64,000 nt of DNA from Prorocentrum cordatum. Taxonomy: Eukaryota. This document shows, piece after piece, positions 14,725 to 59,670 of this stretch. The notes beneath the pieces were generated by a model. That model was not told the DNA's origin. It saw nothing but the letters and a program-made list of their open reading frames with translations, and did no database searches. The stretch spans positions 1 to 64,000 of the forward strand of contig CAUYUJ010000104.1 in the NCBI GenBank assembly GCA_963575745.1. The letters are read 5' to 3'. Each line of letters starts with the position of its first letter. Positions within the stretch are counted from its first letter, which is position 1. The translations under genes and the position numbers were made by a program.

Positions 14725-17700
14725 CCACGACCCTCTGGGCAGGGCGACGCCGGCAGCGTCGAATAGAGCCTGCCCTTGACAAAGCCAGCTGAACATCGAG
14801 GCAAGCATGTGGGCGCCGAAGTCAAACGCGGCCCAGGCGGCATGCGGCGCCCCGCCCACCCCGGGGGTCGAGTGCTTGGCCCTCCTGGCGACTTTCTTGA
14901 AACTGGAACCAGCGGAACGGCAACCTGGAGATCCTGCGCAGATTTCAGAAAGCGGCCGGGGCATGCTTGCGTCGCTGATTCAGCAGGGGGCTTCGCCAAG
15001 AAGACAATATTCCAGTAGTCACACAGTGTATGAAGTCGGCCTTCAGGGGGCGAGACAGGCCCGTCAGGGCCAGCAGCAGACGCGAGCACCAGGCTATTCG
15101 AGAACGGGGCTCACATAGCAACCTGCTTTCCATATCACGGAATAGTGATGACGAGCAAGATCCCCTGGGAGCAGACGCAGAAGATGACGAGGCAGCCGCA
15201 GAAGCAGCGATCCCTTTTTCCAGGACAACTGTGCGCACTCCTGCAGACCGCTGCTAAAAGGCGGGCGCATGTCGTAGCGCCACAGAACAACCATCGACCA
15301 GTAGAGCGTGCCTGCGCGTGCACTGAGGCGTCGAGAAGTCGCAGAGAAAGCCCGAAATCTTGTCGCCAGACCGCTCTCGAAATACTTCGCGTCTCTGCTT
15401 CGCCTGAAGCCTGGAGGAAGAGGACGTCGAGGGCCCCCCCGGCAGCCTCCTTCAACATTAGCTTGCAGCGCTCGCTCGCAACAGGAGGGTTTCACGTAAG
15501 AATATCTTCATCGCCGTCGCTGAGCACGTCCATGAGGCGCTTCTTGAAGACAAGGCTCTGGAAGATGCGCCTCGAGATGGGGTGATCCGTCGGAGGCCAC
15601 GCAGCACGCTGTCGCAGCGCAGCGTCGACGGCGGCACGGTCAGACACCATCTTGGAGCTCAGCTCCTCCGGCGAGCCGATCGCCCCAGCCGTGGCCGCCA
15701 GCTGGCGCGCCACCCAGCCCGCGACCGAGCAGAAGAAGGGATTGAGCTCACAGGGTTGGTGCGCCGACGAGAGTAAGCGGGGGGGCCCGAGCAGACCGGC
15801 GCAGCCAAGGTCGGGGCGCCCCGGCCCAGGTCGGGGCGTGGACTTTGCGATCGTGAGCGGCTTGGACCTTCGAGGCTTCAGGCCCGTGAACAATCAGCGC
15901 CTCGTCAACTGAAGTCGCCGAAGACAGAGGCGAAGAACGAGAGGGGGGAGTGGCGAACCTGGCGGTTGGCATACCTGATCTATTCACAGACTGAGGCGAC
16001 CTTCATCCTGGACAAGCCGTTGTTCTGGATGTCAAGCATCACCGGCTGCGCCTCGCCGAGCACCGCGTCCACGCGCAGCGCGCGTCCAGGGGTCATCTCC
16101 GCAGCCGAACAGGAGAATCGATCCGAGGGAAAGGGTGGCAGAAGGATGGCGACGCCACGAGCTCCTCGATCTCCGCAATCACAGAAGCTGCAGTGGACAA
16201 TCACGTCAGAGCGGACCTTGCGCACAAAGTTGATCAATTGAGGACTGTCGCCGCGTGCTTCTTGCAGTCCCACGATGCTGCTACCAGTGACGCAGCGTCT
16301 ATGGTAAGCCAAACTGTTTCTGGCCCTTGGCTCCACCGCGCTGCAATGGAGCCCTAGCGATCCAGGTAGTGAAATGCAACGCCGCGCCGCCAGCGGTCGC
16401 TGGCAGCGAGACAAGGCCCGCGAAGCCGTCAAAGACACCGCTGAGTCTGGGCCGCGGGAGCAGAAAGAGACGATGTGGCTTCGGCGAGAGGCGGCGCTCA
16501 AGACCCAGCGCCGCGAGGCCCACGTCGCTCCAATGAACCGCGGAGGGCCCGTCGCCAGGGCGGGCCTCGACCTTGGGGGCGTCGGCGACATCGGCCGCGA
16601 GGGCGCCTCTTACGGTCGACGAACCAGCGCCTCTGGGGGCAGGCGCCGCTGAAGACGCCGCGGACCTTGCGAAGGAATACCTCGGTGCGCACTTGTTTGG
16701 GGCTCTTGTCAGGGCCGAGGTGAGAACGGGCAGGGTCAGCTCCCGGGACCGCGCAGCGAAATTCCCCCCACCGGCAGCCCTTCCGCAGGCATCCCAGGGC
16801 GCGCTGGTCTCTGCGGAGGGGTGGGGGTGGGGGGGGCTGCGCCAACGGCGCCGTTGAACGTGATCGAGAACTTCTTGGCAGGGAGGGGGTGAGAGCGCGG
16901 ATGTCGTAGTCACCCTCGTGGAAGTTGAGCTCAGCAAGGAAGGCGCCGATCGCGTCGCGCACGCCCTGGAGCCCAACCAACTTCGCAGCCACCGCAATAA
17001 CTTGGGAGGGATCGACCTCACGATCAAAGCCAGGGGGGACGAAGGGCCTCGCAGGAGAGGCGCTGCCGAGCTCAAATTGCTTGCGGATGTCTGAGATCTC
17101 TCTATGCATAGCGATGGTCTGCCGCTCGTGCTCACCCAGGGTAAGCTCCGACTCCGACGCGCTCTTGGTGAGCGCATCCTGCTACATCTGGAATCTGCTG
17201 GCGAGCTGGTCGAGCTGGGGGCGAATCGCGGACATAATTCTCTGGTCGGCAACCTGGGCATGCCCCGGAATTTGCTAGCGCAGCACACCCAAGGTCTTCA
17301 GGATCGGGTCGTTGGCGGCCTGCAGGGACGAGGTGGCCGCAGCATTGACTATGTCATCGAAGGAGCCGCGCAGGGAGGCGAAACGAGCCTCGATGTCAAC
17401 ACGATAGTAGTGGATGCTGAAGTCGGGAGTTCCCCGCGTCGCCGCCCGCGCCAATGTGATACACTTGGGGCTCGGCACGAACAGGTTATGCAGCGCGAGA
17501 AGGGGCACCGCCACGAGGAGGAAACCGAGCAGCAGTTTGTGCCCACGGGTCGGGAGGGGTGCCTCCCACTTCATCTGGGAGGGTGGGGAGGATGGCGTCC
17601 GCCTGCAGTCCGCCTGCAGGATGCTGGGTGGCTGGCTGTCGGAAAGGGACTGGCCCCCAGCAGGCGCCGCCATCCAGGCAGCAGGGGCGCCAGGGTCCGA

Positions 17701-18038
17701 TCGGCGATGAGAAGCATGCGCAAGCGGACGGAGATCAGCATCAGGACGAACATCCCAGCCACTTGGACACTTGTGCCTGCCCGAACGGTGAGGCTCCGCT
17801 GTCTTGGAGCGAGAGAGGCCACGCCGGTCAGCATCCACTGCGCTCTTGTCGCTGCGGGAGATAGAGCGAGCAGGCGAGGAACTGCGGCTGCCATCGGACA
17901 TCAGGGAGGCGGGATACTGGGAGGGCTGTGGAGCACTGGATGGAAGGGATGTCAAGCGAAAGCGCTATGGCACTGCCGCGGACTAGCGGTACCCGTTTGT
18001 CCCCCAGGGGGAACATGCATCTTGAGCCAAAACGGCTA
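14725..18038 (-). mobile_element. Decayed, 3'-truncated LINE (ORF1 remnant, APE endonuclease, start of RT region) with a 5' spliced-leader relic
   Basis: ORF1-like pieces (..GFDREVDPSQV..GPDKSPKQVRTEV). APE motifs: FTTW, IVGLQEARG, RGVAILLP, VFGDF, VSDR (SDH-like). Pre-RT motif STPGVGGAPHAAW (SAPGPDG-like), ending near LFDAAGVALPRG. Many stops and frameshifts. 5' end at the SL relic 18021-18038. Confidence 0.75.
18021..18038 (-). other. Dinoflagellate spliced-leader (DinoSL) relic
   Basis: Minus strand reads TAGCCGTTTTGGCTCAAG, 17/18 identical to the 3' part of DinoSL DCCGTAGCCATTTTGGCTCAAG. It directly follows a (CCT)n tract. Confidence 0.9.
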
Positions 18039-18754
18039 AGGAGGAAGAGGAGGAGGAGGAGGAGGAGGAGGAGGAGGAGGAGGAGGAGAAGGAGGAGGAG
18101 AGGAGGAGAGGGAGGAGTGGGAAGGGGAGGAGGAGGAGGAGGGAGGAGGAGGAGGAGGAGGAGGAGGAGGAGTGGAAGGAGGAGGAGGAGGAGGAGCGTC
18201 TCGTCCCGAAGTCGCCACGCACGCGCGGCTGTCGCGCACCGCGCCAGAGGTGCTCGCGCTGCGCCCCGGCAGAGCTATTCATGGGCCTCCCGGGGGAGGC
18301 CCCGAGCGGGTCAGCTGCGCCCCACAATCTCGGGGCAGCGGCCACAGAAACGGCATCTCGGCGCGCCAGGAAGAGGAGCAGGAGGAGGAGAAGGAGGAGG
18401 AAGAGGAGGAGGAAGAGGATGAGGAGGAGGAGGAAGAGAAGGAGGAGGAGGAGGAGATGGCGAGGATAAAGCGGAGGTGGAGGAACTCTTTGTTCTAGGA
18501 CAATCGTCCCACCTTCTCTGCCATCTGCTGCTATTCGGACAGCTGCTAGCCGCAGCGCCGCCCTGCCTGCGAACCAGCCGAAATCCACTCGACCTCTGCC
18601 GAGCAGCCGTCGAGCACGACACCGACATCAGCACGACGCTACCTCACCCGCCGGGTCCCGATGCAGGAAACGCACTGCGCGACTCAGGAGGAGGGGGAGG
18701 GGAGACGGGGGAGGAGGCGGCTCAGAGAGGAAGGGCTCCGGATGGGGCAGCGAC

Positions 18755-18875
18755 CCGATGCTACCATCCAACTCGATCTTCAGGGTCTCCATCAGGGCCT
18801 CGCAGCGCGCCTCCAGCACCGCCCGCGAGGCCTCCGCGTCGCCGGTCTGCATGTCGTCGCACCACGACCCGGCCT
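18755..18875 (-). CDS. Probable isolated host exon (unknown protein)
   Basis: AG|AGSWCDDMQTGDAEASRAVLEARCEALMETLKIELDG with high-GC3 codons, between microsatellite tracts. Confidence 0.4.
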
Positions 18876-19460
18876 CCGCGGCGAGCGGGGGCAGGCGAGG
18901 GAGGAGGAGGAGGAGGAGGAGGAGGAGGAGGAGGAGGAGGACGAGGAGGAGGAGGAGGAGGACGGACCCAGATAGAAGAGCGCGCCGAGTTCGGGTGACT
19001 GGAGGAGGACGAGGAGGAGGAGGAGGAGGAGGAGGAGACGCGACGGGGAGCTCGGCACGGGGCTCGGGGGGTCCAGGGGCCGCTCTCGGGCCCCCGGGGA
19101 GAGGTCCAGAGACGGCTTGCGGGGAGAAGCCGGGCTGGGGATGCGGTCGGGCGTTCCGTGGCCCCCGTCGCGCAGGAAGTCACGTCGCGGGAGACAGGGA
19201 TCGACCCAAGCAGTGTTTTTCGTCTTGGTGTTGCTCTCGTGCTTCCTCGTTTTGTCTCCAACCCACCTTTGCCACCAAGCAGGGTCAAAACGAAAACGGC
19301 CCACGAGAGCGCCACAACACCGTTCAGGTCGACCAATGGTCGGAAGATCTGGAACGAGGGGGGGGGCAAAGGGAGGGGGGGAGAGGGTGCAGGTGCCCTC
19401 GCACCATATCGGACATCCGACCCCATCCGGCCCATCCCTTTTGATAGAAAAAGACAGAAA

Positions 19461-25285: not shown

Positions 25286-27740
25286 CCTCGAGAGGAGGGG
25301 GAACTGCAACGGCAGGGACAGTCATAGGAGGGAGGGGGACGGGAGAAGACTGGAGGAAGGAAGGGGGGGCAATAAGAGGACGGGAATGTACACATGTTTA
25401 TGCCGCTTTTCCTTCTTCCGCCAAGGGGACGCGAGGAGATACCCTCCGAAGGCCCCCCCCTGCCGGGCACCACCGCAGCCAGTGCCGGCATCGGCGGCGG
25501 CGACGGCCGCGACCAGCGTGCCCTGCCGCGCATGGCCGCTGCACGTCCTCCCCCAACTCGGGCCTGCCGCTCGTCCAGCTCTTGCCCATCCTCCTTCTCC
25601 TCCTCCTCCTCCTCCTCCTCCTCTTTCCCCCCCTCCTCCTCCCTGTCCCCCTCCTCGCCCACCTCCTCCTCCTCCCCGTCTTCCTCCCGCTCCCACTCCC
25701 GCTCCTCCAGCTCCTCCTCCAGCTCCTCTTCCTCCTCCAGCTTACTTCCCTCCTCCTGATCCTCCTCCTCCTCCTTCCCCCTCCTCCTCCGCCACCTCCT
25801 CCATGCCGTCTGTCGCACGCCGAGGCCGGTCTCGAAAGGGCGGTACGGGCGTCTGGCTCTGAGATTTCCTGTACCGGTCGTGGCCCCGGTTCTCAAACAT
25901 GGACAGGAGCTTCGCTGATGAGGAGGGCGGGCCGTCTCCAAAAGTGTGGCTCTCGCCTGAGCGCCGCGCGCATTCGTTTTCAACTGTTCTAATGTCTTTC
26001 TTGGCTCGATGTTTTATTGGCTCGGTTTTAATCGAGGGCGGCTCGATCTTTTATGTGGCTCTCGCCTTGCCACCGCGCACATTCGTTCGAACACCTTGCA
26101 AGAACGTCACGGACTGAGGTCGGGCCGTTTTCAGAATGCGGTTTTCGCCGAAGCGCCGCGCACATTCTTTTGAAACATTCGCAAGAGCTTCACTGGTTCT
26201 CATCGTTAGCAAACCAAAGATGGCGTTTTGGATCGATTCTGGATAGTCAGGGCGCAACAATTGCGTTGATTCGCAGTGTTGAAGTCCCAGATTTGGTGTT
26301 CTGGCACGATTCAGGATCGCCAAGACGTAACGAACAATTCAACTCGTGGCGGAACTCGCTTCAAGATATTCACACGGTTGTCCCCAAACGGGGCACTCCC
26401 CTCAGTGGGAATGACCCCTTGTAGGGGCCTATGAAGGAGGCTCTCGGAGGGAGCATGTATTTCAACATCGTGAGTCTTGGGTTTACACTGGTCCTCCTCC
26501 CTCGCCTCCGCCTCCTCCTCCTCCGCCTCCTCCTCCTCCTCCTCCTTCTCCCTGTCCCCTTCATACTCCTACTCCTCCTCCAGCTCATCCTCCTCCTTGT
26601 CCTCCTCTTCCAGCTGCTCCTCCTCCTCCTTCTCCTCCTTCTCATCCTCCTCCTCCGCCTCCTGTTTTTCCAACTCCTCCTCCTCCTCCTCCTCCTTCTC
26701 CTTCTCCTCCTCCTCTTCCGCCTCCTGCCCCTCTTCCCTCCTCCTACCGAGTGTCACAAGACTGATCGCTGATTGCCACACGAATGTGCATACGGTTCAT
26801 CTCCTTGAGCCGTGGATGCACGTAATTAAGTTGCCCAGAGTAACCAAAAAAAAAAAAACGTGCGCTCGCAATGCGAACGTGCTCGCTGACACGGCGAGTA
26901 CCTGTGGCGCGGGAAATGTCACAAACCTCTTTGTTGGCTCTGTGCGCACTTAGCGCGTCGGCAGTGTCTTCAGAGTGCCGCGCATTCAAGAGTGCTCCTA
27001 CGCTTTCAAGATTGTTGCCTGGCTGCGCTCTCCAGATGGCTGCGTGGCCCGGCGAAGGCTCGCGCCAGAGCGTGTCCCCAGATCCTCTTGGCTTGGCTCT
27101 CCTCTTCTCCCCTCCCGTTCCCCTCCCTCCCTCCCTCTCTGCTCGCTCCTCGTCCCCGCCTCCTCCCCTCCATCCTCGCTCCAGTGCCCTCCTCGCTTCC
27201 CTCGGCTCGGCTCCTCTCGCCCCTCCTCTCTCCGCGCTCCTCCCCTCATCGAGTCCGCGGGCCCTGCCCCGCCTCGGGCGCGCGGATGCGGATGGCCGAC
27301 CCCTCGGCAAAAAAACCCGCCCCGGGTCGACGAGGCCGGACAGTCCACGGCCCCTCCCTCCCCTCCGGCTCGAGGCCCCAAACCCGCCTCCGGCTCGAGG
27401 CGACGGGCCCTCCCCCCGCCGTGCTCCCGAGCGCCCGCGCGCCCGGCGCCGGCCGCGCGCGTGGCAGGCAGGCGTCGCGGCTGCGCGACGCCCTGCGCTG
27501 CCAGTGCACCGCAGGAGCGCCTCCAGTGAATGTCAGAGGCCCACCGTGGCCGTGTGTCTGGCAGTCGTCCCCTGGGCGGCCTTGCCACACCTCCCTCCGC
27601 CTCGCTTCCTAGCATCCTCCTCCTCCTCCTCCTCCTCCTCCTCCTCCTCCTCCTCCTCCACCACCACCACCACCACCACCTCCTCCTCCTCCTCCTCCTC
27701 CTCCTCCTCCTCCCCCTCCTCCTCCTCCTCCTCCTCCTCC

Positions 27741-27749
27741 TGGCTCAAG
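27741..27749 (+). other. Truncated DinoSL relic at the LINE 5' junction
   Basis: TGGCTCAAG equals the last 9 nt of DinoSL and sits exactly at the microsatellite/element boundary. Confidence 0.7.
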
Positions 27750-27943
27750 ACCTGAGCACACCGCGGGAGGTGCAGGTCTCAGCATTGCCATCCAGGGCAG
27801 GCCCTGGGTGCTGGGGCCCAAGCTTGTTTGCTCTGCCCCCGTGCCGCCTGGTCAGCCCCAGGCAGAGGCACAATCACGACCCGCATCAGTGCTGCCATAG
27901 GGCCTCTCGTGTGCGTGCGCCAGCGCGCCGCCATCATCAGAAG

Positions 27944-29101
27944 ATGCCCGCCCAGCAGCAGAAGAAGTACATGGTCTGCTCGAAGCGAGGTTGCAAGGGC
28001 TGGGCTTGGTGCGCGACGAATTCTCGTCATTGCATGCAGTGTGGCAGCCGTTTCAAGCAGGGCGGGGATCATGGTCCCCCAGCTAGACCCCAAGGCGGTG
28101 GAGGTGGCCCCCAGGATGTTCGGCCTGACGTCGAGGAGGAGCCCGCCAAGCCAGGACGCTGGAGGAAAGGCTCCCGCGGTCCAGAGCGCCCACCAGGCCT
28201 GGGGCGCGGAGGCGGCCGAGTGGTCACCTTCGAGGATGCAGTTCCCGCTGACGACCCAGTCGCCCTGGCCCAAGCTCAAGTCACCTTCTGGAAAAAGTGG
28301 AAGCCAGATGGAGAGGAGCACAAGGCGGCGCTGGGCAAGCTCAAGTTCGCCAAGGCGCAGGCGCTATCAGCCAAGAGCCTGGAGCAGCAAGCACAATCCC
28401 TGTCAGATCAACTCCAGGTGCTGCGCCAGAGGTTGCAGTCGCAGAAGCAGGAGGCCAGCGAGCTGGTCACTACTATTGTCGAGGCAAGTGAATATCACGG
28501 CAAGCTGGTCGAGGAGATCGAAGCTAATCCAAAAGAAGTGCAAACGCTGGAGACACAGCTCAATGCGGCCACCCAGGCGGCTGCGTACGAGGCATCCAAA
28601 GCTGAAGATTTGCTCACCACCATTCAAGGAGTTATATCCGCCAGAATGCCACAAGGAGGACTGGCCCCACCTGAACTACGAGATAAAGTATCGGAGCTGG
28701 CCGCCATGTTCGACACCTTGCAGCAGCAACATGTCGCATCCCAGGCCTCGGGCGCACCAGCAGGTGGCGGCCCGCCTGCGGAGGCGGCCCAGCGCGGGGT
28801 CATCGACGGCTTCCCTGCAGTTGGAGAGAGCCCTGATGACGGCCAGGCAAGTCAGACGCCCGTGCCCATCCCAGGCCAGCACGTCCCCACTCCCGCCGAC
28901 GACAAGGAGCTGGAGTCCATGGCAGAGGAGCAGGCCATGGACACGTCTGAAGGCCGCCGCCGTGCGGCTGCTGCGCTATCCGAGGTCGCCCAGGGCATGG
29001 CCAAGATCCAGAGTGAGTCAGGCCCCGAGACCAAGAGGGTCAAGGCGGCAGCCGAGGCTGCGTCTCTCGCGGCCACCCAGGGCCAGAAGCCGCCAGGGTA
29101 A
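27944..29101 (+). CDS. LINE ORF1 (N-terminal Cys4 zinc finger plus coiled coil), 385 aa
   Basis: MPAQQQKKYMVCSKRGCKGWAW..CMQCG, heptad-rich middle (LEQQAQSLSDQLQVLRQRLQSQKQE), stop TAA 29099-29101. Confidence 0.8.
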   Translation: MPAQQQKKYMVCSKRGCKGWAWCATNSRHCMQCGSRFKQGGDHGPPARPQGGGGGPQDVRPDVEEEPAKPGRWRKGSRGPERPPGLGRGGGRVVTFEDAVPADDPVALAQAQVTFWKKWKPDGEEHKAALGKLKFAKAQALSAKSLEQQAQSLSDQLQVLRQRLQSQKQEASELVTTIVEASEYHGKLVEEIEANPKEVQTLETQLNAATQAAAYEASKAEDLLTTIQGVISARMPQGGLAPPELRDKVSELAAMFDTLQQQHVASQASGAPAGGGPPAEAAQRGVIDGFPAVGESPDDGQASQTPVPIPGQHVPTPADDKELESMAEEQAMDTSEGRRRAAAALSEVAQGMAKIQSESGPETKRVKAAAEAASLAATQGQKPPG

Positions 29102-32100
29102 CACTTATAAGATCGCTACTATCAATGGTTCCTGCTGGCCTGCTGTGCGCAAGTTTGTCCTTTCGCCGCAGTCTAGTGCAGTCGCGATCATCTGTGCTCA
29201 GGAGTGTAAGCTTGCCGAAGGAGATAGCATTGTGCGTAAGATACAATGGTGCTCGGCCCAGGGGTGGCTGGCTTACATCACGCCTGCAGCCGCGAGTGAG
29301 AATAATGAGTTGGTTTCGGGAGTTGCGATTTTGATTCGGGATGGCTTGGACCTCGGGGTCCAGCCAATCACTTTTTCTGCCGCTTTCGACCCCGCTCGAT
29401 TATCGGGGGTGTTGCTCGAACTTCCTGGGGTCCCGAAGTTCGCCATATGTTGTACCTACTTTCAGGCTGCTGCTGGTCTCTCCAAGACCAATTTCAAACT
29501 GCTGGCCGCCATAGGCCAACTTCAGGATGATTTGACCCATCCAGTGTTGGTTGCGGGGGATTTTAACCTAGCCCCCGCTAGGTTGGCCCAAGCGGAGTTT
29601 CTGTCCAGGTCCACGATGACCCTGCTTGTGCCGCCGACCGCCACCTACCGAAACAAGAAGACCAAATCCACGCTAGATTATTTCCTGTCTAGCCAAGGCC
29701 TCTCGCCGTGGCTCAGTAACCCCCGTACTCTTTCCTCGTATCCTCTCTCCCCTCACAGACCTGTGCTGCTAGATATTGTAGTTGAGAATAACTTTAATAT
29801 CCCCACGCTGCATAGGCCCCAGAAGCTACCCACACGTATCCCTGTGGGCCCGCAATTGCCAGAAGTGAGTTGGCACCAGTCAGCTGCTGCATTGGAGTAC
29901 GCTTCACTATTTATCGATGATGCTCAACGGCCGCTCAGCGATCAACAGCAGTCGGTGCTCCTGGACCACGTGTATTTCAGCTTGGCCCAGGACTTGGAAG
30001 CTACAATCAGTAAGAAAACTAACACCCCCCTCAAGCCTAGCAAGTACCCCAGGGCCCCACCCCCCTCAGGTTCTTACGGTCCCCGCTGAGGCCAAGGCTG
30101 CTAGGAGTAGGGCCAAATGGGTGGCCTACACGGGCCCGTTGAGATGGCTCATCAATAGGATCCAAGATTTCCATAGATGTGTTCAGGACTGGAATCTCAC
30201 TGAGTTTCAGGACGCTCTCGACAGCTGAGAGGATTGCCCTGAGCTGTTCACCACCGTCGTGTCCCTCAAGGAGGGGCTGCAAGAGATTAGAGTTGCTGCA
30301 GGTCTGTTGCACGTTGATTTCAGCGCTGGTGCCCTGAACCAGGCGCTGGCGATCCAGGTTCTGGACGAGCTGCTAGAGCACGTCACCAAGCTCCTGCATC
30401 AGGAGCAGGCGGCAGAGAACGCTGCAGACGGGAAGGCATGGAGGGATTGGGTTCAGGACAACATGAAGGGAGGAATGGGATGGGCTCACAGATGGACCAA
30501 GCGTTTGGAGGCCTGGAGGCCCTCGTCAGTTCCATTTAAGTCGCAGTATTCTGGCAGGCCCCAGCATATATTGCAGGCTGAAGCAGATCGTCTGGCAAAA
30601 ATATGGCAGGTTTCCCAGGATACCCCACCTCAGCTCGTTCCTGACAGAGAAGATCGAATTGCCCTGGGCCCCATCAGCCCCAAGAGACTACGACAGGTTG
30701 CGAAAAGTTTTCCCCATGCCACTGCCACTACCTGGGACGGGTTCCACCCTAGGCATTCCAGTATGTTGAGTAACGAACAGGCAGAGATTGTCTGCGATTT
30801 TATTGGCCTGCTGGAAAAGATGGGACATATGCCAACCCAGCTCCAAGGCATCGTATCGACTCTGATGATGAAGTTGAAACAGCATGATGCCCCAGCCAGC
30901 CAGCCCTCTTTCAGGTCCATTGGCATGCTTCCAGCTTTGCACAGAGTCTGGGCTAGGCTCAGGAGGTCAGCGGCCAGAGAGTGGGAGGCACACCACCGCA
31001 GGCCGTATCTTGCTCATCAGGCTGGTCACTCCATGGTGGAATTAGTATACAAACAATCCTTGGAATGCGAGTTCAACAGCTCTGACAAAGATCAACAATA
31101 TAGTGCCCAAGTTCTCTACGATTTATCTAACTACTACGAACATGTTGATCGGCCTTGTCTTGCTTATCGTGCTGTTGAATCAGGTTTTCCGTGTTGTTTA
31201 TTGCGTATCATACTATCTCAATATGCCAGTGAACGCATAGTTGCACTACAAGATTGTGCAGTCAGTGTAGGCAAGCCTTGGAGGGGCATAGCCGCAGGAT
31301 GCAGTTGGGCCACCTATCTTGTGCAAATGTATGTGCTCGCCCCGCTCGACGTGTGGACGCAGGCGCATTGTCATATCAGGCTCGCGATGTTTATAGATGA
31401 TCTGCTGCTCCAGTGCCACGGCCGCAGTTGCAGCCTCATCGTCAGCCAGCTCAATATTGTTGCCAGGTCCATGGCAGACTGCATCATCAATGAGTTTAAG
31501 TGCCAGATCGCCAGCAAGAAAAGTCAGGTCCTGGCGTCCCAGCAAGCCCTTCAGGATCAACTCAGGACGGCCCTCGGGCCTCTGGCGGGCCCGAACTCGG
31601 ATAGGTCTGGACCTAACCTGGGTTGTGAAACTGGGGCTGGACGGCCCCAACGACGTTGGAGAAAGCAGCGTAAGATTTCGGAGCGTCTTGATAAGATGCG
31701 TAAAAGACTTAACAGGGTTCGCATGCTCAAGAGAGCAGGGGGTAACACTCATAAGTTGTATAGGACTGGCCTCGAGGCGGCCACCACGTTCGGAGTCGAG
31801 GTGACTGGCATCAATGGCACGCAGTTGGAATCAGCTAGGTCGCAGTTTTTTGGCTGCTGCGGGACCCCGTTGCCCGACGCGCAGCCGCAGTTTGGCTCTG
31901 CTCATCCTCGAGGACCCCTTGTGGAAAGCTGCCCTGGGCCCCGCCATTATGTGGCATCGCCTTGTTTGGGGCGCCGCCACCCGCCCCCACCTCGCCGTGA
32001 CCAGCCTACAGCAGTTACGTGTTTGGGCTGAGGCCATCCTCCCGAGAGTTGTTAAATCTTGGGGCTCCTCCAGGGGCCCCCTCAGCGCTGCGGCGCTTTC

Positions 32101-33823
32101 GCTTAAAAGGATCGGTTGGAAATCCCAGGGACCATTTACTTTTGTGACCTCCTCAGGCATTGAGTACCCTCTCCCAGGACATTCCCCCGCCCTCCTCCAA
32201 AAGCTCATGGAGTTCGACTGGCGCGGCCAGCTCGCTTCCAAGGCGGCCGAGAAGATCGGCCACCCGAACGCCCAGTTAGATGTGGTTGCTGCCCGTGCTG
32301 CTCTGTCATCGCCAGACCTCCTTGGCCACCAGAAGGGAACCCTCCTCGCCTTCCTCACCCAGAGTATATGGACTATGGACAGAGCCAAGGCAGCAGGATA
32401 TGAAGTCGAGACTGGCTGCGAGTGCGGCCACCATTCGGACAACCTCGGCCACCGCATACTTTACTGCCCGAAGACAGAGAATCTCAGAACCACTCACTTC
32501 TCGGCAGCGGAGCTTCAGAATTTAAGAGAGCCTCCTCCCCAGACCCTGCCCCAGTATCTCGGTTTCCAGCTGGTGCCCGAGTATCGTGGAGAGAATCCTC
32601 CTGGTTCGGGCCTGGAGTTTGGGGAGTTTTGGTGTGCTCAGGAGGGGATCACCCCGCAGGAGGCTTTCAGCGAAGGGGAGGTGTATATAGATGGTAGTTG
32701 CACTAACCACGGTCACTATGTTTTCAACGCCGCAGGTTTCGCGGTTGTCTGCATGCGTAACGGTGAAGCTTTTGCCCATTTCAGTGGCCGAGTCGGCCAG
32801 ATGTTTTTACAAACCTCGGGTGCCGCGGAGCATTTGGCCGCTGTTGCGGCCAGTATTCTTTCTAGGGATGTGGAAGTCATTTACTCTGATTATAAAGGAG
32901 TTTTGTCCCTGCACCAAGGGTCTGAGTACCCTCGGCACAACGTGTGGGCTGGGTGTAAGGTCTTGGCTGGCAGGAGCCAGTTCCCCCTCGGCCAACGCCT
33001 GCGCAAGGTCAAGGCCCACCAAGACTTGCAGGCCCTCTCAGAAGGCAGTGAAGAGAGAAGGTTGGCCGAAGGTAATAGTACTGCTGACCGCATTGCCAAG
33101 GCAGCCGCTTTTAAAGGAATGCAGCCCAGTGAAGCAGAGAAAAGTGATTTCACTGACAGTCGGAAGTTTATCGTGCGATATTTGAAGTATGTTGCGCAGG
33201 CTCTGGGAGAGTGGCCCGCGATCGCCCCCCACCGCAACAAAGTTTTGGCCGCCCCAGAGAAGAGTTTTTCTCCCCCCACGGGTGCCGCCTCTGCCCTTTC
33301 GTCGTGGACGCCGCCGTCGTCGGTCGAGCCTCCCCCCCCTCCGCCTCCGCCTGTGCCCCAAGAGGAGCCCAGAGAGCCCTTCAGGTACCACGCATGGGCT
33401 CTCATTCACCAGTATCACAGGTGCATCCTGTGTAGAGTGCAGACCAAGTCTTTCAAACAGCGGGGAGTCTTACAGGCCCAGCATTGCCCAGGCCACTGTA
33501 AGCAGCTCTCCGATTTTGTGCATGATAATAAAGGCCACGATTTGTTTTACTACGAGCACCTTGATCACCCGACGAGTATCTTGGTTTGCCATAAGTGTGG
33601 ATCCTTCTCTGAAGGGTTGGGTCGAGGGCTCGCTAGTGCGTGCAGCACTAGAGTGAGCCACCAAGGAGCGGCCACTCAGCTAGCCCGCGTCCAGGAGGGT
33701 CGAGATCCCAAGGGCACAAAGTCGTCCCCGATCGTTTTTAAGACCCCCGCTACTCCCCTGGCCCAGTTGGTGCGCGAGGAGCGTGCCAAGACCCAAGGAG
33801 AGGAGGCACTAAGCCCTCCATAG
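29097..33823 (+). pseudogene. LINE ORF2: APE endonuclease, reverse transcriptase, CCHC finger, RNase H, C-terminal Cys/His fingers; two frameshifts and one stop as given
   Basis: APE: ATING, ICAQEC, SGVAIL, AGDFN, TLDYFL, SPHRPV. RT: WDGFHP, FRSIGML, LYDLSNYYEHV, GIAAGC, MFIDDL, NLG. CCHC: CECG..H..YC. RNase H: VYIDGSC, QTSGAAE, IYSDY, KVKAH, GNSTAD. Lesions: C-run ~30055-30066, TGA 30226-30228, T6 run ~31846-31851. Confidence 0.9.
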
Positions 33824-35384
33824 TCGGCCGCGCTCTCTCGCGGCGGACATCGAACACCCCCAAGCCATGTGCGTGTCCTCCTCCTCCTCCTCCTCCTCCT
33901 CCTCCTCCTCCCTGACCTCCCTCGCATCATTGCGTCATATCACTACTTCCTCCGTGCCTCCTCCTGCCTCTGTCGTGTCTTCCCTGTCCTTCTCCTCCCC
34001 CTCATTCTCTTCCTCCTCGTCCTGTTCCATCTCCTCCTCCTTTTCCTCCTTTTCCTCCATCTCCTCCTCCTCCTCCACCTCCTCAGCATCATCCTCACAC
34101 TGCTCGCCTTCGAAAGCATCCTCCTCTCTTTCTCGCAGCGCCATCGGGCGTCCCCGCGCAGTCGCCGCGCCCCGCCCGACCACGCGCGAACGCGCCGCCG
34201 TGGCCAGTGCGGGACCTGCCCGTTCCGGAGGGTGGGGGGGGGGGAGGAGGGCCGCCCACTCTGCTGTTTTACGATCCTGAGGCCCTCAGAGGGTGGGGGG
34301 GGAGGAGACGATGGAGCGGCCGGGCGGGCTCTAGAGACGTGGCGGCAAATTCCGAAGACGGCGCACGCTGCGCGTGGCGTTGTTCACGGCGCACCTGGTC
34401 CGTAGCGCTGGAGACGTAACGCACTCGACATTCGGGAAGATGGCCTGCTATAAATAACGACGTGCCGACGTGTAGTTCTGGAGTAATGTCGTGAGGTCGT
34501 TTCTGGTGTTCTCTTGGGTGCTGCCACGCGCACGCTCGGCGTACCCAGATTGGATCGTCAGTCGGGTGCGCCTGTTGTGGGAAGCCGTTGGGGGAGGAGG
34601 CCAGTGGTCTTGTGCTAGTCCTGTGTATTAGGGTTGCCCTGGCAGTCCAACAAGCCCACGACGTACATAATCCTCCTGTTTCAAAAAAGGTGGTAATGCA
34701 ATTCAGCTTCGCTTGCGACATCAAACTCGCTGTAGCTCATGAGATAGACGGTCATCAAACTCTTGCTCCTCTTCCTCCCCCTCCTGCTCCTCCTCCTTCT
34801 CCTGCCTCTCCTCCTCCTCCTCCTCCAATGCCTCCTTCTCCTCCTCCTCCTCCTCCTCTGCCCGTCCATTTCATATTCCGCCTTCCCTGTCTTATCATGG
34901 TCCCTCCTCCGCCAACGCCGTCTCATCACCCTCATCCGCCCCCTCTCCGCTGCACCTCGTCACCCTCAATTATGACTAGGGGGTGAAAAAACAAGGCCCG
35001 ACTCTGCCAGTCCGCGGGGCCTCAAGACTCTCGAACGCTCCCCCGGGGCGGGCTGCTGCAGTCAGCCCATACGATAGGGACGCACGCTAAGGATGCAGGG
35101 GCCTCAGAAGGCCGTGTCGACACTCTGCGAGCAAGGCGCGGCCAGCGAAAGCGGCCAAGGATGGGCTGAAAGGGAAAGATGCAAGAGAAACCTTGGAAAA
35201 TCGTTCATCGTTTACTTAACGGGTTGACTGCACCCAGATAAAAGACGTGCCCAATGCCCAAGAATGGCCCTGGGACCCCGACGCCGCAAGACATAACGCC
35301 AAGGCCGAATAGACCACGCCACGTCGGAGATCCGGGTCCGCAGCTGCGCGCCACCGCAAGAGGGCCCCCCTCTGGCGGATCCGG

Positions 35385-35461: not shown

Positions 35462-41333
<5,872 letters not shown>

Positions 41334-47608: not shown

Positions 47609-47674
<66 letters not shown>

Positions 47675-54540: not shown

Positions 54541-55540
54541 TGAGGCTGAGGCTGAGGCACGCTGAGGCTGAGGCAGGCTGAGACTGAGGCTGAGGCAGGC
54601 TGAGGCTGAGGCTGAGGCTGATGCAGGCTGAGGCTGAGACGCTGACGCTGAGGCTGAGGCAGGCTGAGGCTGAGGCTGAGGCAGAGGCAGGCTGAGGCTG
54701 AGGCAAGCTGCGGCTGAGGCAGGCTGAGGCTGAGGCTGATGCAGGCTGAGGCTGAGGCAGGCTGAGGCTGAGGCTGAGGCAGGCTGAGGCTGAGGCTGAG
54801 GCAGAGGCAGGCTGAGGCTGAGGCCGCGGCAAGCCGAGGCAGGCTGAGGTTGAGGCTGAGGCAGAGGCGGGCTGAGGCTGAGGCTGAGGCTGAGGTTGTG
54901 GCTGAGGCCAGCTGCGGCTGAGGCTGAGGCTGAGGATGAGGCCGAGGCAGAAGCTGAGGCTGAGGCAGGCCGAGGCTGAGAGGCTGACGCTGAGGCTGAT
55001 GCAGGCTGAGGCTGAGGCTGAGGATGAGGCAGAGGCAGGCTGAGGCTGAGGCTGAGGCAGGCCGAGGCAGGCTGAGGCTGAGGCTGAAGCTGAGGCAGGC
55101 TGAGGCTGAAGCTGAGGCTGAGGCTGAGGCTGAGGATGAGGCTGAGGATGAGGCTGAGGCAAGCTGCGGCTGAGGCAGGCTGCGGCTGAGGCTGATGCAG
55201 GCTGAGGCTGAGGCAGGCCGAGGCTGAGGCTGAGGCAGGCTGGGGCTGAGGCTGAGGATGAGGCCGAGGCCGAGGCAGGCTGAGGCTGAGGCCGAGGCAA
55301 GCCGAGGCAGGCTGAGGCTGAGGCTGAAGCTGAGGCAGGCTGAGGCTGAGGCTGAGGCTGTGGCTGAGGCAAGCTGCGGCTGAGGCAGGCTGTGGCTGAG
55401 TCTGATGCAGGCTGAGGCTGAAGCAGGATGAGGCTGAGGCTGAGGCAGTCTGAGGCTGAGGCTGAGGCCGAGGCAGGCCGAGGCTGAGGCCGAGGCAGGC
55501 CGAGGCTGAGGCCGAGGCAAGCCGAGGCAGGCTGAGGCTG
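54541..55540. repeat. (GCTGAG)n/(GCAGGCTGAG)n satellite
   Basis: Directly visible, about 1 kb. Confidence 0.95.
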
Positions 55541-55699
55541 CGATTGCGAGAACAGGAGAATTCTACAACTGGATTCTCACCTGAATCTTAAGGGGGATGC
55601 TTCCAGATATGATTATACACATCGCTGTTAGGTTGTTTCGTCGGGATATGTTTTGTTTTTGGGGGGGGTGCGAGACTATGATCAAGTTGCAAGTGCAAG

Positions 55700-58600
55700 T
55701 GCAGAAACCGATTAAGGCCGAGTTTGCATTAGCCGCCGTTTGTGGTCGGCCCTGCTTGAGCTCTCGCGGACTAATCCTTGCTCAAAAAGGTTTAGATGCT
55801 CCCCGCCTGCGCGCGCGGGTCGGCCAGGGCGGCGCAATCTTCCCAGCCCACAGACCTGCCGATCAACAACGGCCCCGCCCACGCCGCACTAGCACGGACA
55901 AAGGGCAGCATGATAGTTGAGAAGATGGGATGGATGCAGCCAGCCCCCCGCCACGCGGATCCTACCACCAACGGGCGGTGAGAAAAGGGCTGCGTCCACG
56001 TTGGCTACGGGGCGGCAGCGAGATGACCTACCTTCTTTCAGCTTGGCAGCCGACGCGGAACCTAAACATTGGGTCGACGAAGCCTACACTCACCGAGCCG
56101 ATGAGCCGGGAGCAGCGGGGCGAGAGCAGCAACGGCAGGGAAGGGGGACAGGGGGAAGCGCGGAACCTGCTCTTCTTGCCTCTCACGATCCCGTTCGGTC
56201 GCCACCTTCGCGAAACAATCGAGGGTCGCGCGAAGCAGCCGCACGCGCGCGAGCATAGCCTGACATTCCGTTATTTCTGCATGCAAGAAAAACATCTGGC
56301 GGATAGTCTCAAGGGCGCGGCAAACATGGGCGGCGGCCTCTGCAGTAATTTCAGCCACCGCGCTGTCACGCACTAAGCTGCTGCGCGATCCTTCCTCGAC
56401 AATATCAGACTCCGTTAAGTGGCTGCGCGTGAGCAAAACAAAATACGATGAGCCGGCCCGTGCTGCTCACTGAGAGCATGTCCAATCAAGCCCCATCTGT
56501 CGGCTTCGGGTCCTTTCAGCGTTAAATGCGCTTGCTCGTACCGCGGTTCGGAATCTGCGATGTGCACTAGATGGCCCTAGCCAGACGTAGGGGCGACGAG
56601 CGAGGCATTTATCTCGCCTCTAGTCACAACCTCTAACGCGACCTGCCTATACCCGACAGAGGGCCACAAAGAGAGGCCTCCACTCTTGTGGGCTCTATGA
56701 AGGCAAACTTCGCAAGAGCCGCACCTACGCGCCTAAGACGGAGCAACTTTGACTTCCCCCCCCCCCCCCCCCCCCCCGAAGCATCACCCGCAAACAAAAT
56801 GGCAACCTCTGCAGGTCCCGCCCCGAGACATGCGCCAGCGTACTCGGGCACGTTACAGATCTCCCACTGATCCTGATCCATGTTTCCCCGGGTCCAAAAG
56901 GCCGCCCCTGCGTTGACTTGTGCAATGGCGGCGGGAACTGATCCGGCGGAAGCCTCATGCACGGGTGATTTCACATCTCGCATCGCCAGGAATCTCGCAC
57001 CCCCAAAAATCTCAAATCACCCACGCATTGGTTCGAGCCTCTCCTTTCCGCGACGTCGAGTCCAGCAGCCTGCAGCTGCTAATAGTGATCATGGTCTCCG
57101 CTAGGCGCCCGCCCTGTGGGGCCATCTCCAGTTGGCGAACTAATGTAAAACAAAACACTCAATTACCCAATCCGCCTCAAAGATATTGACGACCAGCTTG
57201 AAACCATATGCTGCGTCGAGCAACCTGTTCTAGATCGCGCGACAAGTGATCATGCCGATCGATGAACGAGTTGCCTATGTAGACTTGGTTTGGGAGAAAG
57301 CCATTGCTGGACGTCGCCATCTTGGGGCGGATATGACCACGACGAGGAGGCTTCAGGCGCCAATGCATGTCGCGCAAAGGTTCAAATCACTGCAGGAGCT
57401 GGGCCTCTGGCACTTCTGGATTGATCGGCAGCCATCAACTCCTGAAGCTTCGCCTGGGTCAGGGGCCAGATGCGCTCAATGGATGGGCGAGTGCTGGCTC
57501 GATCTCTCCAGGTCTTGAACCGGGGATCGATCGCCTGCAGCGGCAACGGCAACGCAGCAACGGGGTCGACCTCGCGGGCCCGGAGGTCCAACGCAGTGGT
57601 CAGGCGTCGTCTATTAGAGCCTCCGCTGGTGTCTTGTGCAAGCCTCCTTCTGGCAAGCTGCAGTTGCTGGTCGGAGACGCCGTGGGCCTGGTGCCCGCGC
57701 AGGCCAGCTGGAAGCCCTCCTCGAGGTTGCACCGTCGAAGATGCCCTTTACTGTCAGGATGCTTTCGCGATGCGTCTAGTTTTGAATGGCATGTGGTTGT
57801 GATTATATTGTCTGGGCCGTCTTGTGCATCTGGCATGCCTGCTGCTACGCCCGAAATCAACTCCCAGGCATGTGGACTGCGCGACTCCTGCGACGACAGA
57901 GTCTTCCAGCTTTGACCGCTTTGACTGCAACCTCGAGCAAACGTTGCGCCAATTCCTGACAAACGTGTAAAAAAACATTCCGTCAACCCGTCGTGGAATG
58001 GGATGAGTCGCCCACCCGCAATCGACGCCCCATTGCGGAGTGCACGGTGGCAATAGTACACAGCGCATGATGAGCAAGGACATTAGCGAACCTTGTGCCA
58101 GAGCGTAGACCCCGCACTGAACTCTGGCTCGGTTGGACCGGTGGGGTAGCGGCGCCCATCTGCTCCAAAACTCGCGCAGAAACGCATTGAGCTGACTCCA
58201 GATGCAGGAATGGCCGCATGGAAATTCATTCGCAATGCAGCTGATACTAATGGTATCCAAAGAATCGAATAATTAAACGCTTGGAATTTCGAGGATGGCG
58301 CGTCCGCGCTGCATTCGGGAATCGCACGCGACTCAGAGAAGCCTCGTGAAGGCACACATTGCCTTTGACCGCAGCATCCCAACTGGTGGACTGCTCGCTG
58401 GTCCACGTTTGGACCTCAGGCTCTCTCATCATCGACCATGCGTCACCGATCGCCCATGCCACACCGATTGCCCTGTCTCGTCGGGCCTTTTTGGGCGACA
58501 ACCTTCACGTAATTAGCTGCGCTTGCATCTGCCAACGCAACGCCTCCCCCGCCACCGTCACCACGAATGCGAACTTCGCCAACCCAGCAACAGACAAAAG

Positions 58601-59670
58601 TTGGAAACCGACTGGTATGAATCCATCCGCTCCGAAGCCTGCGCCAGCCTTCATGCGCTGGCACGCTCGCAGGACGGATTGCCCATTGATAGGAGGCAGA
58701 ATTCACGCGGGCGGAAAATGGCAGAAGGGCCTGCAAGGACCAGAAAAAAAGCCTCGTGTTTCAGCACAGCTTTGTTCTTCAGCGACTTGTGCAATACTCG
58801 ATTGGCGACTGGACTGACAACCCATTCTCTGACATCACTGAGTGGCGCGGCAGCGTACCCCTGAGCACGCTCAGTTTCTCGACGTGCGCAGGGCCCCCAA
58901 GCTTCAAGAACTGGCAGCGGGGCTCGTCCTCGCTCGCTGAGGAAAGCTGCCCAACGCTCGCATGGGGGATCTCAATCTGGCCTCGTCATATTAGCGACGT
59001 CATCAGGCGTGCCATATACCATGTTGACACATGCTTCCACGTGCGACAAACTGTGTGCAACTCCATTGTCGCGAGCTGCGCGCCGACATCTCCCTGCAGT
59101 GACCGTGGCCGAGAGCGTCCACCATGGTGCTCTGGTGTCGCGCGGCTGGAGTTCCATTTCGTGGCTAATCTCTCGCAACCTTGCGAACTGGTCCTTGAGC
59201 GCCTTATGGAGGGCTGGATCCTGGGTGGCATGCAGGGCCTTGTGGACTAGTTTGGTCACCTCGTCGGGCTGTGGCGCGGGGCCACCTTGCCCCTTGCTTC
59301 CCCGACCACCGCTTCAGGATACCATGCGGCTGCTGCCAACCATCCTGGGGCGCGAAGACGGCATGGAACTCCTCATCACCCTGCGGAGCTCGCACCTCCT
59401 CGACATGTACCTTCTTACCCTGGTACAGTGTGACACGTTCCTTCGACTTACTGCATCGATTATATCGCTTACGTAGGATACGATTCCACGCACACTGTCC
59501 ACATTCGCATCGCGTCAACAGCTGTGCAAACATGCTGTCAGGGCATGTGATGATATGCCTTTCTTGGTCGAATGTTCAGGGTTGGTGGCAACACCAAGGA
59601 TGAGTCCCTCAAACGCTACGGGAAATTGTAAAGGCCCGCTGAGCTCGCTGCAAAAATGGCCTGAACCCAA
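55700..59670 (-). mobile_element. Heavily decayed LINE (ORF1 Zn finger, RT, RNase H; endonuclease region apparently deleted)
   Basis: ORF1-like CECGQCAW..RC. RT remnants GADGFIPVGFQLLS, DRAIGVAW, WDAAVKGN. RNase H remnants FAGDASGG..RRVGAAL, GPLSG, RSHL..AE..A. Many stops. Degenerate SL-like TTGGGTTCAG-GCCATTTTTG at 59670-59651 next to (CCT)n. Confidence 0.7.

What the first reader, a model, noticed from the sequence alone, without database searches (positions are those of the whole stretch)
14725..59670. Spliced-leader-capped LINEs that sit in (CCT)n microsatellites
Seen: three LINEs with dissimilar ORF1 sequences share one 5' architecture in their own sense: (CCT)n tract, then DinoSL relic, then 5' leader/ORF1. 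The relics are 18038-18021(-) TAGCCGTTTTGGCTCAAG (17/18 match), 27741-27749(+) TGGCTCAAG, and 59670-59651(-) degenerate TTGGGTTCAG-GCCATTTTTG (weak). The intact copy ends in (TCC)n, not poly(A). Known: dinoflagellate mRNAs are SL trans-spliced, and SL relics mark retroposed cDNAs. Inference: these LINEs may need no internal promoter. They could be cut out of host read-through transcripts by trans-splicing (the relic's terminal AG behind a pyrimidine-rich CCT tract makes a ready acceptor), then re-insert at or regenerate CCT tracts, which would couple retrotransposition, SL recycling and microsatellite growth.
Basis: partly seen in the sequence, partly recalled or inferred. Interest (0 to 1): 0.85.

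Follow-up and report, generated by a model that had tools for sequence, protein, structure and literature searches.

The report
Leader-tagged jumping gene in CCT repeats
One clear retrotransposon (LINE) and one decayed repeat in this dinoflagellate-like DNA begin with a piece of the host's universal mRNA leader directly behind a CCT repeat, which fits elements that are copied from leader-capped RNA into CCT microsatellites; the third claimed case does not hold, and the proposed splicing mechanism is untested.

Summary
Partly confirmed. Of three claimed LINEs, only one is secure: 27742-33911(+), with ORF1, APE endonuclease, RT, zf and RNase H. It is multi-copy in public runs and has 2526 protein relatives. 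It starts with TGGCTCAAG (the last 9 nt of DinoSL) flush against a 127-nt CCT/CCA tract, and it ends in (TCC)12 with no poly(A). It is not intact: it has two frameshifts and one in-frame stop.

The element at 18038->~14600(-) starts with a genuine 18-nt DinoSL relic (17/18; none this long in 200 shuffles) behind a 150-nt CCT tract. It is repeated elsewhere, but its LINE identity rests only on weak leads.

The third element is a decayed, 5'-truncated RT fragment (58702-57385, -), and its "relic" is at chance level.

The link between relics and CCT tracts is beyond chance in this window (about 3e-5), although the window holds 36 CCT clusters.

The most economical reading combines three known things. 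The LINE RNA is trans-spliced like any dinoflagellate mRNA. Full-length reverse transcription copies part of the leader. The (UCC)n tail primes insertion at CCT microsatellites.

No whole genome, related DNA loci or RNA-recorded runs could be obtained.

The parts
27615..27741 (+). (CCT)n-(CCA)7-(CCT)n tract directly upstream of the LINE; read as the remainder of the target microsatellite
27741..27749 (+). TGGCTCAAG, the last 9 nt of DinoSL (the T could equally belong to the CCT tract); the 5' terminus of the LINE
   Evidence: Chance level as a word; 2 of the window's 3 exact GGCTCAAG words belong to leader matches that start within 10 nt behind a CCT cluster
27750..27943 (+). 194-nt 5' leader of the LINE
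   Evidence: no similarity to the other leaders
27944..29101 (+). ORF1, 385 aa, with a Cys-rich N-terminus and a coiled-coil at about residues 135-225
29055..30055 (+). APE-type endonuclease (Pfam match 29187-29708). It starts in the +1 frame directly after the ORF1 stop, with no ATG nearby
30050..30063 (+). C-run holding one extra base relative to contigs of all 4 runs laid; this frameshift separates EN from RT
   Evidence: table 4 (30055 'left out 1' in X1, X2, X5, X6)
30226..30228 (+). in-frame stop codon in the EN-RT linker
30229..31875 (+). reverse transcriptase (Pfam RVT_1 match 30907-31527); a second frameshift lies near 31850-31880
31805..33823 (+). C-terminal part of ORF2: a zf-RVT-like region, RNase H (32678-33109) and a Cys/His-rich end; stop at 33821-33823
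33824..33911 (+). 52-nt 3'UTR followed by a (TCC)12 tail (33876-33911); no poly(A)
33912..34120 (+). degenerate CT-rich stretch downstream of the tail, read as the other side of the target tract
18047..18196 (-). 150-nt CCT cluster upstream (in sense) of the 18-nt relic; 8 more CT-only bases bridge to the relic
18021..18038 (-). DinoSL relic TAGCCGTTTTGGCTCAAG, 17/18
14600..18020 (-). body of a decayed, repeated retroposed element. It has a coiled-coil-like frame with stops and an endonuclease-like remnant at 16022-16579, but no RT. It ends at a (TA/TACA)n microsatellite
   Evidence: (X2 contigs about 85% alike)
57385..58702 (-). decayed RT fragment of the same superfamily, in three colinear pieces; 5'-truncated, with no C-terminal part

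Best explanation
A multi-copy APE-RT-zf-RNase H LINE, and probably a second decayed relative, are propagated through RNAs that carry the dinoflagellate spliced leader, as ordinary dinoflagellate mRNAs do. When target-primed reverse transcription runs to the 5' end of the RNA, part of the leader is copied. A new copy therefore starts with the 3' part of DinoSL, 9 nt in one case and 18 nt in the other. The LINE RNA ends in (UCC)n rather than poly(A). That tail can pair with the nicked (GGA)n strand of a CCT microsatellite, which biases insertion to CCT tracts. The result is CCT upstream of the leader piece and tail plus CCT-rich DNA downstream. What is shown: the domains, the tail, the two leader pieces, their abutment to CCT tracts, and the repeated nature of both elements. 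What is inferred: trans-splicing of the LINE RNA, tail-target pairing, and targeting of CCT tracts.
For: LINE identity and family:
- Pfam gives Exo_endo_phos 1.5e-8 and RVT_1 3.1e-7.
- There are 2526 relatives at E<=1e-3.
- Among 8 long relatives, Exo_endo_phos is found in 5, RVT_1 in 6, zf-RVT in 3 and RNase_H in 4.

Repetition:
- In run X2 the LINE body lies at depth 53-124, against 3.8-17 for its flanks.
- In X1 the values are 4.5-11 against 0-0.9 (the tool warns that this depth is not a copy number).

Leader pieces:
- The 18-nt relic is far beyond chance.
- The 9-mer sits exactly at the CCT/LINE junction.

Link to CCT tracts:
- The window has 36 CCT clusters and 3 exact GGCTCAAG words.
- For 2 of those 3 words, the maximal leader match starts within 10 nt behind a cluster end.
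- The chance per word is 36x11/127960 = 0.0031, so 2 of 3 gives about 3e-5 (my arithmetic).

Tail: (TCC)12 follows a 52-nt 3'UTR, with CT-rich DNA beyond it.

Precedents read as passages:
- Relic DinoSL marks retroposed transcripts (PMC7245778; PMC12014239).
- The GO class 'RNA-dependent DNA replication' is enriched among DinoSL-relict genes (PMC5585692).
- The I element ends in TAA repeats and UnaL2 in TGTAA repeats (PMC3747384).
Against: - There are only two cases, both in one window.
- The 9-mer is not significant as a word, and the LINE's 5' end was defined with its help. The independent check, the depth step between bins 27116-27779 and 27780-28443, is coarse.
- Under a strict rule (perfect (CCT)4 ending within 3 nt upstream, true of 0.85% of strand positions), only the 27741 site passes. 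The 18038 site lies behind the imperfect CCTCTTCCTCCT.
- The second element could not be shown to be a LINE and has no (TCC)n at its 3' side.
- No target-site duplication can be read inside a microsatellite.
- I saw no contig bridging position 27750 among the rows shown (table 8; 116027 rows not shown).
Confidence: 0.55

Rival explanations
1. The elements have no promoter. A CCT tract followed by the relic's terminal AG forms a trans-splice acceptor. Any read-through transcript is then cut exactly at the element's first base and re-capped. Insertion into CCT tracts re-creates the acceptor each time, which couples retrotransposition, leader recycling and CCT growth.
For: The geometry fits. At 27741 the first AG after a 127-nt pyrimidine tract is the relic's own AG, 8 nt downstream. 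At 18038 the tract runs into TAG|CC and then CAAG|. Passages report that genomic leader-like sequence can sit at the exact trans-splice site (PMC2488372) and that relic-bearing retrogenes are re-spliced (PMC12014239). LINE depth is roughly flat from 5' to 3' in X2 (104, 53, 79, 120, 124, 119, 101, 106, 114). This hints that most copies are full length, though it is weak evidence by the tool's own caveat.
Against: [quoted passage not shown] The third element looks like a 5'-truncated RT fragment that also lies about 45 nt behind a CCT tract. Targeting explains that; an acceptor role does not.
Confidence: 0.22
2. Coincidence plus ordinary mRNA recycling. The 18038 unit is a retroposed host transcript or pseudogene rather than a LINE. 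TGGCTCAAG at 27741 is a chance word. CCT tracts are simply everywhere in this genome.
For: - The 9-mer is at chance level.
- The window holds 36 CCT clusters.
- Element 1 has no verified LINE domain.
- It ends at a TA-rich microsatellite that could descend from a poly(A) tail.
- Its leader near 17992 lies at far higher depth than its body (X2: 588 against 4.6-17, with 24 contigs), as a common 5' UTR would.
Against: The joint placement of 2 of the 3 GGCTCAAG words at CCT cluster ends has a chance probability of about 3e-5. The word at 27741 lies exactly where the multi-copy LINE body begins. The atlas lead and the weak colinear endonuclease matches favour a decayed LINE for element 1.
Confidence: 0.15
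3. Template jumping. On reaching the leader at the 5' end of its RNA, the reverse transcriptase jumps to the (UCC)n tail of a second LINE RNA. This would create a tail-to-head junction without any CCT target.
For: It would place (CCT)n flush against the leader piece, as seen. That end-to-end template jumps are known for the R2 reverse transcriptase is recalled, not checked here.
Against: Upstream of both CCT tracts there is no LINE 3'UTR or ORF2 C-terminus. The sequence upstream of 27615 is unlike 33824-33875. The C-terminal HMM has no hit near 18200-20000 or 26000-27600.
Confidence: 0.05

Closest known systems
Dinoflagellate 'mRNA recycling': retroposed genes with relic DinoSL (Slamovits & Keeling 2008, recalled; Song et al. 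2017, PMC5585692; Stephens et al. 2020, PMC7245778; passages read)
   Same: A 3'-anchored piece of the 22-nt leader is encoded in the DNA at the sense 5' end of a retroposed unit. Song et al. also report RT-related GO terms enriched among such genes.
   Different: Here the tagged unit is the retrotransposon itself. It ends in (TCC)n rather than poly(A), and the tag lies flush against a CCT microsatellite. None of the passages I read describe this. I did not open their supplementary gene lists.
LINEs with simple-repeat tails, and microsatellite-targeting non-LTR elements: the I element (TAA)n and UnaL2 (TGTAA)n (PMC3747384, passage); microsatellite targets of sequence-specific elements (PMC4640811, abstract in the listing; Kojima & Fujiwara 2004 seen only as a reference)
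   Same: The 3' end is a short tandem repeat instead of poly(A), and the same repeat flanks the insertion. This fits tail-target pairing or slippage during target-primed reverse transcription.
   Different: The repeat unit is TCC. The host is a dinoflagellate. The domain set is APE-RT-zf-RNase H. Target specificity is inferred from one full-length copy.
Trypanosomatid L1Tc/ingi with the Pr77 internal promoter (PMC1874656 and PMC8190864; abstracts in the listing)
   Same: A LINE living in a host in which mRNAs are SL trans-spliced.
   Different: According to those abstracts, L1Tc solves expression with an internal promoter that gives unspliced transcripts. Here the copies carry a leader piece, which points to spliced transcripts.
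SL-gene-specific elements SLACS/CZAR/CRE and NeSL-1 (recalled; not read here)
   Same: A retrotransposon adjacent to spliced-leader sequence.
   Different: Those elements insert into SL RNA genes and use a restriction-like endonuclease. Here the leader piece is the 3' part only. It lies at the element's own 5' end, is followed by the element's leader rather than an SL intron, and is preceded by CCT repeats. The endonuclease is APE-type.

Membership tests
APE-type non-LTR retrotransposon (LINE) | Apurinic-like endonuclease N-terminal to the reverse transcriptase in one ORF2 | tested here: met
   For 27742-33911: Exo_endo_phos 1.5e-8 and RVT_1 3.1e-7, colinear with long relatives. In this copy the ORF is broken by two frameshifts and one stop.
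APE-type non-LTR retrotransposon (LINE) | The same domains in the elements at 18038-14600(-) and 59650-57385(-) | tested here: inconclusive
   Element 1: no Pfam, PDB or homology hit; atlas lead to Exo_endo_phos at 0.88; weak colinear EN matches at E 0.44 and 3.4; no RT. Element 3: RT pieces only, at E 0.0015, 0.096 and 0.26 by HMM, and tblastn 8e-7 with 10 of 152 relatives.
APE-type non-LTR retrotransposon (LINE) | Repeated in the genome | tested here: met
   Contigs of 4 runs from 4 studies cover 27956-33864 at 93-99% identity (96-99% for all but one piece). Depth is about 10-fold above the flanks in X1 and X2. Element 1 also has contigs about 85% alike in X2.
APE-type non-LTR retrotransposon (LINE) | Target-site duplication | not testable with these tools
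   Both flanks are CCT repeats. No empty-site allele was obtained.
DinoSL-relic-bearing retroposed sequence | The 3'-anchored DinoSL sequence in sense at the 5' end | tested here: met
   18038: 17/18, beyond all shuffles. 27741: an exact 9 nt, significant only by position. 59670: not met.
DinoSL-relic-bearing retroposed sequence | Transcripts of the locus carry a fresh DinoSL joined at or within the relic | not testable with these tools
   No run listed as holding the stretch is on record as RNA. All four runs laid were contigs: three marked 'DNA?' and X5 of unrecorded kind.
Microsatellite-tailed / microsatellite-targeting LINE | The 3' tail is the same simple repeat as the flanking target | tested here: met
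   A (TCC)12 tail, with a CCT tract upstream and CT-rich DNA downstream of the one full-length copy.
Microsatellite-tailed / microsatellite-targeting LINE | Independent copies consistently lie in that microsatellite | not testable with these tools
   No genome is held. No related loci were found in metagenome, viral or prokaryote-genome collections. The junction rows were cut from the output.
SL-RNA-gene-specific retrotransposons (SLACS/CZAR/NeSL) | Insertion inside an SL RNA gene; restriction-like endonuclease | tested here: not met
   The leader piece is followed by the element's own leader (ACCTGAGC... and ATGCATG...), not by an intron starting GT, and is preceded by CCT repeats. The endonuclease is APE-type. 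No Rfam family matches in the window.

The most novel reading that the evidence does not exclude
Dinoflagellate LINEs of this family may have given up an internal promoter. Landing with a (TCC)n tail in CCT microsatellites inside transcribed DNA places each new copy behind a long pyrimidine tract, with the relic's AG as the first acceptor. Host read-through RNA would then be trans-spliced exactly at the element's first base and re-capped with a full leader. On this reading retrotransposition, leader recycling and the spread of CCT microsatellites form one self-sustaining cycle, and the same machinery could be the long-sought source of the abundant leader-tagged retrogenes.
Probability: 0.2. 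Interest if true: 0.75.

Novelty: new variant of a known kind. Interest (0 to 1): 0.45.

Why it matters
It is not known which reverse transcriptase makes the very many leader-tagged retrogenes of dinoflagellates; LINEs are only presumed (PMC5585692 and PMC12014239, passages). A LINE family that itself carries the leader tag shows that its RNA passes through the same capped pool and that its reverse transcription reaches the cap. That makes it a concrete candidate. A (TCC)n tail would also distinguish the products of this family from poly(A)-primed ones, and it might explain part of the CCT richness of this genome. If the acceptor model were true, it would be a new way for a mobile element to obtain expression. 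To a specialist, however, a leader piece on a dinoflagellate LINE is expected rather than startling, and LINEs associated with microsatellites are known from animals.

Tried and rejected
- Whole genome: none is held.
- Related DNA loci: ORF1 as query in metagenome contigs gave 90 pattern matches and no relative. An 11-sequence RT alignment was rejected as too variable. A 4-sequence alignment found no relative in metagenome, viral or prokaryote-genome contigs.
- Scan of prokaryote genomes for GCCATTTTGGCTCAAG: 122 loci, nearly all chance hits or bacterial motifs. About five look dinoflagellate-like (L007, L032, L042, L090, L102), too few for any CCT statistic.
- Sequencing runs: no RNA holder was listed.
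- Laying 4 contig runs at 80% likeness: the output was dominated by high-copy repeats at 19-26 kb. No empty site and no bridging contig were seen.
- Element 1 homology: one search used the longest ORF (16302-17297, -). I later saw that this is not the protein-like frame, so that blank says little. The 'longer' search with 15983-16609(-) found nothing. PDB, EN-HMM, hhalign and a second atlas query gave nothing. A read-through reference was rejected because of its stops.
- PDB sequence searches with the LINE's RT, EN and C-terminal part found no relatives, so no clade assignment was made.
- Leader similarity among the three elements: none.
- Minus-strand ORFs across the LINE's flanks are merely Glu-rich translations of CT repeats.
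- Earlier scan notes held nothing relevant.
- Literature searches found no paper describing leader-tagged LINE termini or CCT targeting in dinoflagellates. Supplementary tables of PMC5585692 and PMC8045281, which may list RT genes with relics, were not opened.


Full report
**What the window is.** G+C is about 0.51-0.65 outside a 5.8-kb (TAC)n satellite. CCT/AGG microsatellites are frequent: 72 perfect tracts of at least 4 units, merging into 36 strand-specific clusters, or 2.5% of bases. One 18-nt piece of the dinoflagellate spliced leader is present. These features fit a dinoflagellate nuclear genome. The G+C resembles the 59.7% reported for Prorocentrum cordatum (PMC10666404, passage), which is a lead I did not test. 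No whole genome is held for the window.

**The secure element.** It spans 27742-33911(+).
- Behind a 127-nt (CCT)n-(CCA)7-(CCT)n tract come TGGCTCAAG, a 194-nt leader and a 385-aa ORF1 with a coiled coil.
- An APE endonuclease follows (Exo_endo_phos 1.5e-8), then an RT (RVT_1 3.1e-7).
- The C-terminal part matches relatives at 1.8e-48. It holds an RNase H-like stretch covering positions 5-140 of the 141-position profile, at E 0.0075, which is below the Pfam cutoff.
- The RT has 2526 relatives at E<=1e-3 among 1.84 billion representatives.
- Among 8 long relatives, Exo_endo_phos is found in 5, RVT_1 in 6, zf-RVT in 3 and RNase_H in 4.
- The stop codon is followed by 52 nt and then (TCC)12, with no poly(A). 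Degenerate CT-rich DNA follows.
- The copy is not intact. All four runs laid lack one base in a C-run near 30055, which in the window separates the EN and RT frames (table 4). There is an in-frame stop at 30226-30228 and a second frameshift near 31850-31880. Assembly error cannot be excluded for the homopolymer indel.

**Is it mobile or repeated?** Contigs from four runs of four studies cover 27956-33864, with 2-23 differences per 214-1183-nt piece; one 307-nt piece has 52. In X1 and X2 the body lies at about ten times the depth of the flanks. The step falls between bins 27116-27779 and 27780-28443. The tool warns that such depth is not a copy number, so I treat this as weak support for a 5' boundary near 27750. 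Depth is roughly flat along the element in X2. That hints at mostly full-length copies, with the same caveat.

**The leader pieces.**
- The 18-nt match at 18038-18021(-) is real. It has 17/18 identities. None of 200 shuffles gave an 18-nt match, and matches of 12 nt or more occurred 0.13 times per shuffle. Its Smith-Waterman score is 31-32 against a maximum of 25 in 10 shuffles.
- The 9-mer at 27741 is not significant as a word. SW 18 occurs 4.1 times per shuffle. For 3'-anchored matches of 9 nt or more with at most one mismatch, 14 were observed and 11.9 expected.
- The sequence at 59670-59651 does not reach SW 18. I reject it as a relic.

**Association with CCT tracts.**
- The window holds three exact GGCTCAAG words.
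- For two of them the maximal leader match begins 0 nt and 8 nt (all C or T) behind the end of a CCT cluster.
Two of three then has a probability of about 3e-5 (my arithmetic).
- Under a stricter rule, a perfect (CCT)4 ending within 3 nt (true of 0.85% of positions), only the 27741 site passes. The 18038 site lies behind CCTCTTCCTCCT.
- The adjacency is therefore not explained by CCT richness alone, but n = 2.

**The other two 'LINEs'.**
- *Element 1 (18038 to about 14600, minus strand).* It is repeated: X2 contigs of 323-491 nt differ from it by about 15%. One frame looks like a coiled-coil ORF1, interrupted by stops. No tool verified a LINE domain:
  - Pfam was blank on 17 ORFs there.
  - PDB was blank.
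  - The family's EN-HMM and hhalign gave no support.
  - Two large-database searches were blank, and one search used what I now think is the wrong frame.

  In its favour are an ESM-atlas lead whose top three named clusters carry Exo_endo_phos (score 0.88, lead only) and two weak matches to the secure LINE's endonuclease, colinear at its N- and C-terminal ends (E 3.4 and 0.44; hhalign aligned the same C-terminal segment). It has no RT. It ends at a (TA/TACA)n microsatellite, not at (TCC)n.
- *Element 3.* It contains three colinear RT pieces on the minus strand:
  - 58702-58508: HMM positions 109-156, E 0.096.
  - 58504-58250: HMM positions 175-225, E 0.0015.
  - 57747-57385: HMM positions 465-523, E 0.26 (tblastn 8e-7 with 10 of 152 relatives).

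  It has no C-terminal part. In the secure LINE the RT profile starts 2.6 kb from the 5' end. Here the claimed 5' end is only about 0.6 kb upstream. This is therefore a decayed, 5'-truncated fragment and not a third example of the architecture.
- ORF1 and leader sequences are indeed dissimilar.

**Mechanism.** The simplest account joins three known things.
- Dinoflagellate nuclear mRNAs receive DinoSL, and retroposed copies keep a relic of it (passages in PMC7245778 and PMC12014239). RT-related GO terms are enriched among relic-bearing genes (PMC5585692).
- LINE cDNA synthesis that reaches the cap would copy the leader. The two junctions each share a single ambiguous T with the CCT tract, which is typical 5'-junction microhomology (inference).
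- LINEs can end in simple repeats used in priming or slippage (PMC3747384 passage), and some non-LTR elements target microsatellites (PMC4640811 abstract).

A (UCC)n tail pairing with a nicked (GGA)n strand explains CCT on both sides of the full-length copy. It also explains why a 5'-truncated fragment may lie near a CCT tract.

The geometry fits this. But Bachvaroff & Place found only an AG and no simple consensus at acceptors (PMC2488372), and no RNA evidence could be obtained. Template jumping onto another tail is unlikely, because no LINE 3' end lies upstream of either tract.

**Novelty.** Five literature searches, with passages read in eleven papers, turned up no description of leader-tagged LINE termini or of TCC-tailed, CCT-embedded LINEs in dinoflagellates. 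Supplements that may list such genes were not opened. Each ingredient is known, so I class this as a new variant of a known kind. It is of moderate interest and needs the genome-wide junction table that I could not make.

Noticed in passing
35464-41293: A 5.8-kb imperfect (TAC)n satellite, about 1944 units at 78% matches. G+C drops to 0.37 there, with strong C over G skew.
   Followed up: partly
19148-26451: Very high-copy interspersed repeats: summed contig depth reaches thousands, and 5x10^5 in X5 at 23796-24459. There are poly-C loose ends at 24246-24304, and several 150-200-nt repeat families recur in the window (for example 19472-19671, 20673-20853, 25108-25291, 48386-48565, 63475-63653).
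   Followed up: no
17992-18014: The leader just behind the 18-nt relic lies at far higher depth and in many more contigs (X2: 588, 24 contigs, all with T for C at 17992) than the body of the element (4.6-17). This short segment therefore belongs to a much commoner repeat or a shared 5' UTR.
   Followed up: no
43141-43288 (-) and 48793-48908 (+): A conserved motif of about 35 nt ending ...CCATAAGTTNGAGGGGGAGGG directly precedes a CCT tract in two inverted places, 85% alike. It may be the tail end of another CCT-tailed repeat family.
   Followed up: no
14429-14443 (-): AGCCATTGTGGCCCA(GG), 14 of 17 to the DinoSL 3' part, lies directly behind the (TA/TACA)n microsatellite that ends element 1. At SW 20 it is chance level on its own, but it might be a worn relic heading a further retroposed unit.
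   Followed up: no
54200-55600: A long tandem array of short GCTGAGG/GCAGGC-type units. On the minus strand it reads as PQPQP/ASASA repeats.
   Followed up: no
29099-29110: The ORF1 stop is followed at once by the endonuclease in the +1 frame, with no ATG nearby. ORF2 may need frameshifting or reinitiation, or this copy may carry a further indel.
   Followed up: no
L011, L017, L036, L045, L098, L103, L107, L118; and L004, L020, L039, L055, L062, L065, L088, L110: The 16-nt DinoSL core GCCATTTTGGCTCAAG recurs in bacteria inside two conserved contexts. One is a Legionella group (...AAAATCAG|core|CTAGCGAAAT). The other is a group with ...GCTACGT|core|CCTGTCAG...TTGGCTTGT, which looks like a structured RNA or a repeat.
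   Followed up: no
L007, L032: Short high-G+C contigs binned into bacterial MAGs carry the full 21-nt DinoSL. This is probably dinoflagellate DNA mis-binned.
   Followed up: no
21301-21374 (-): ARAGORN calls a tRNA-like fold with an abnormal 2-base anticodon inside the high-copy repeat region. It could be a tRNA-derived repeat or a false call.
   Followed up: no
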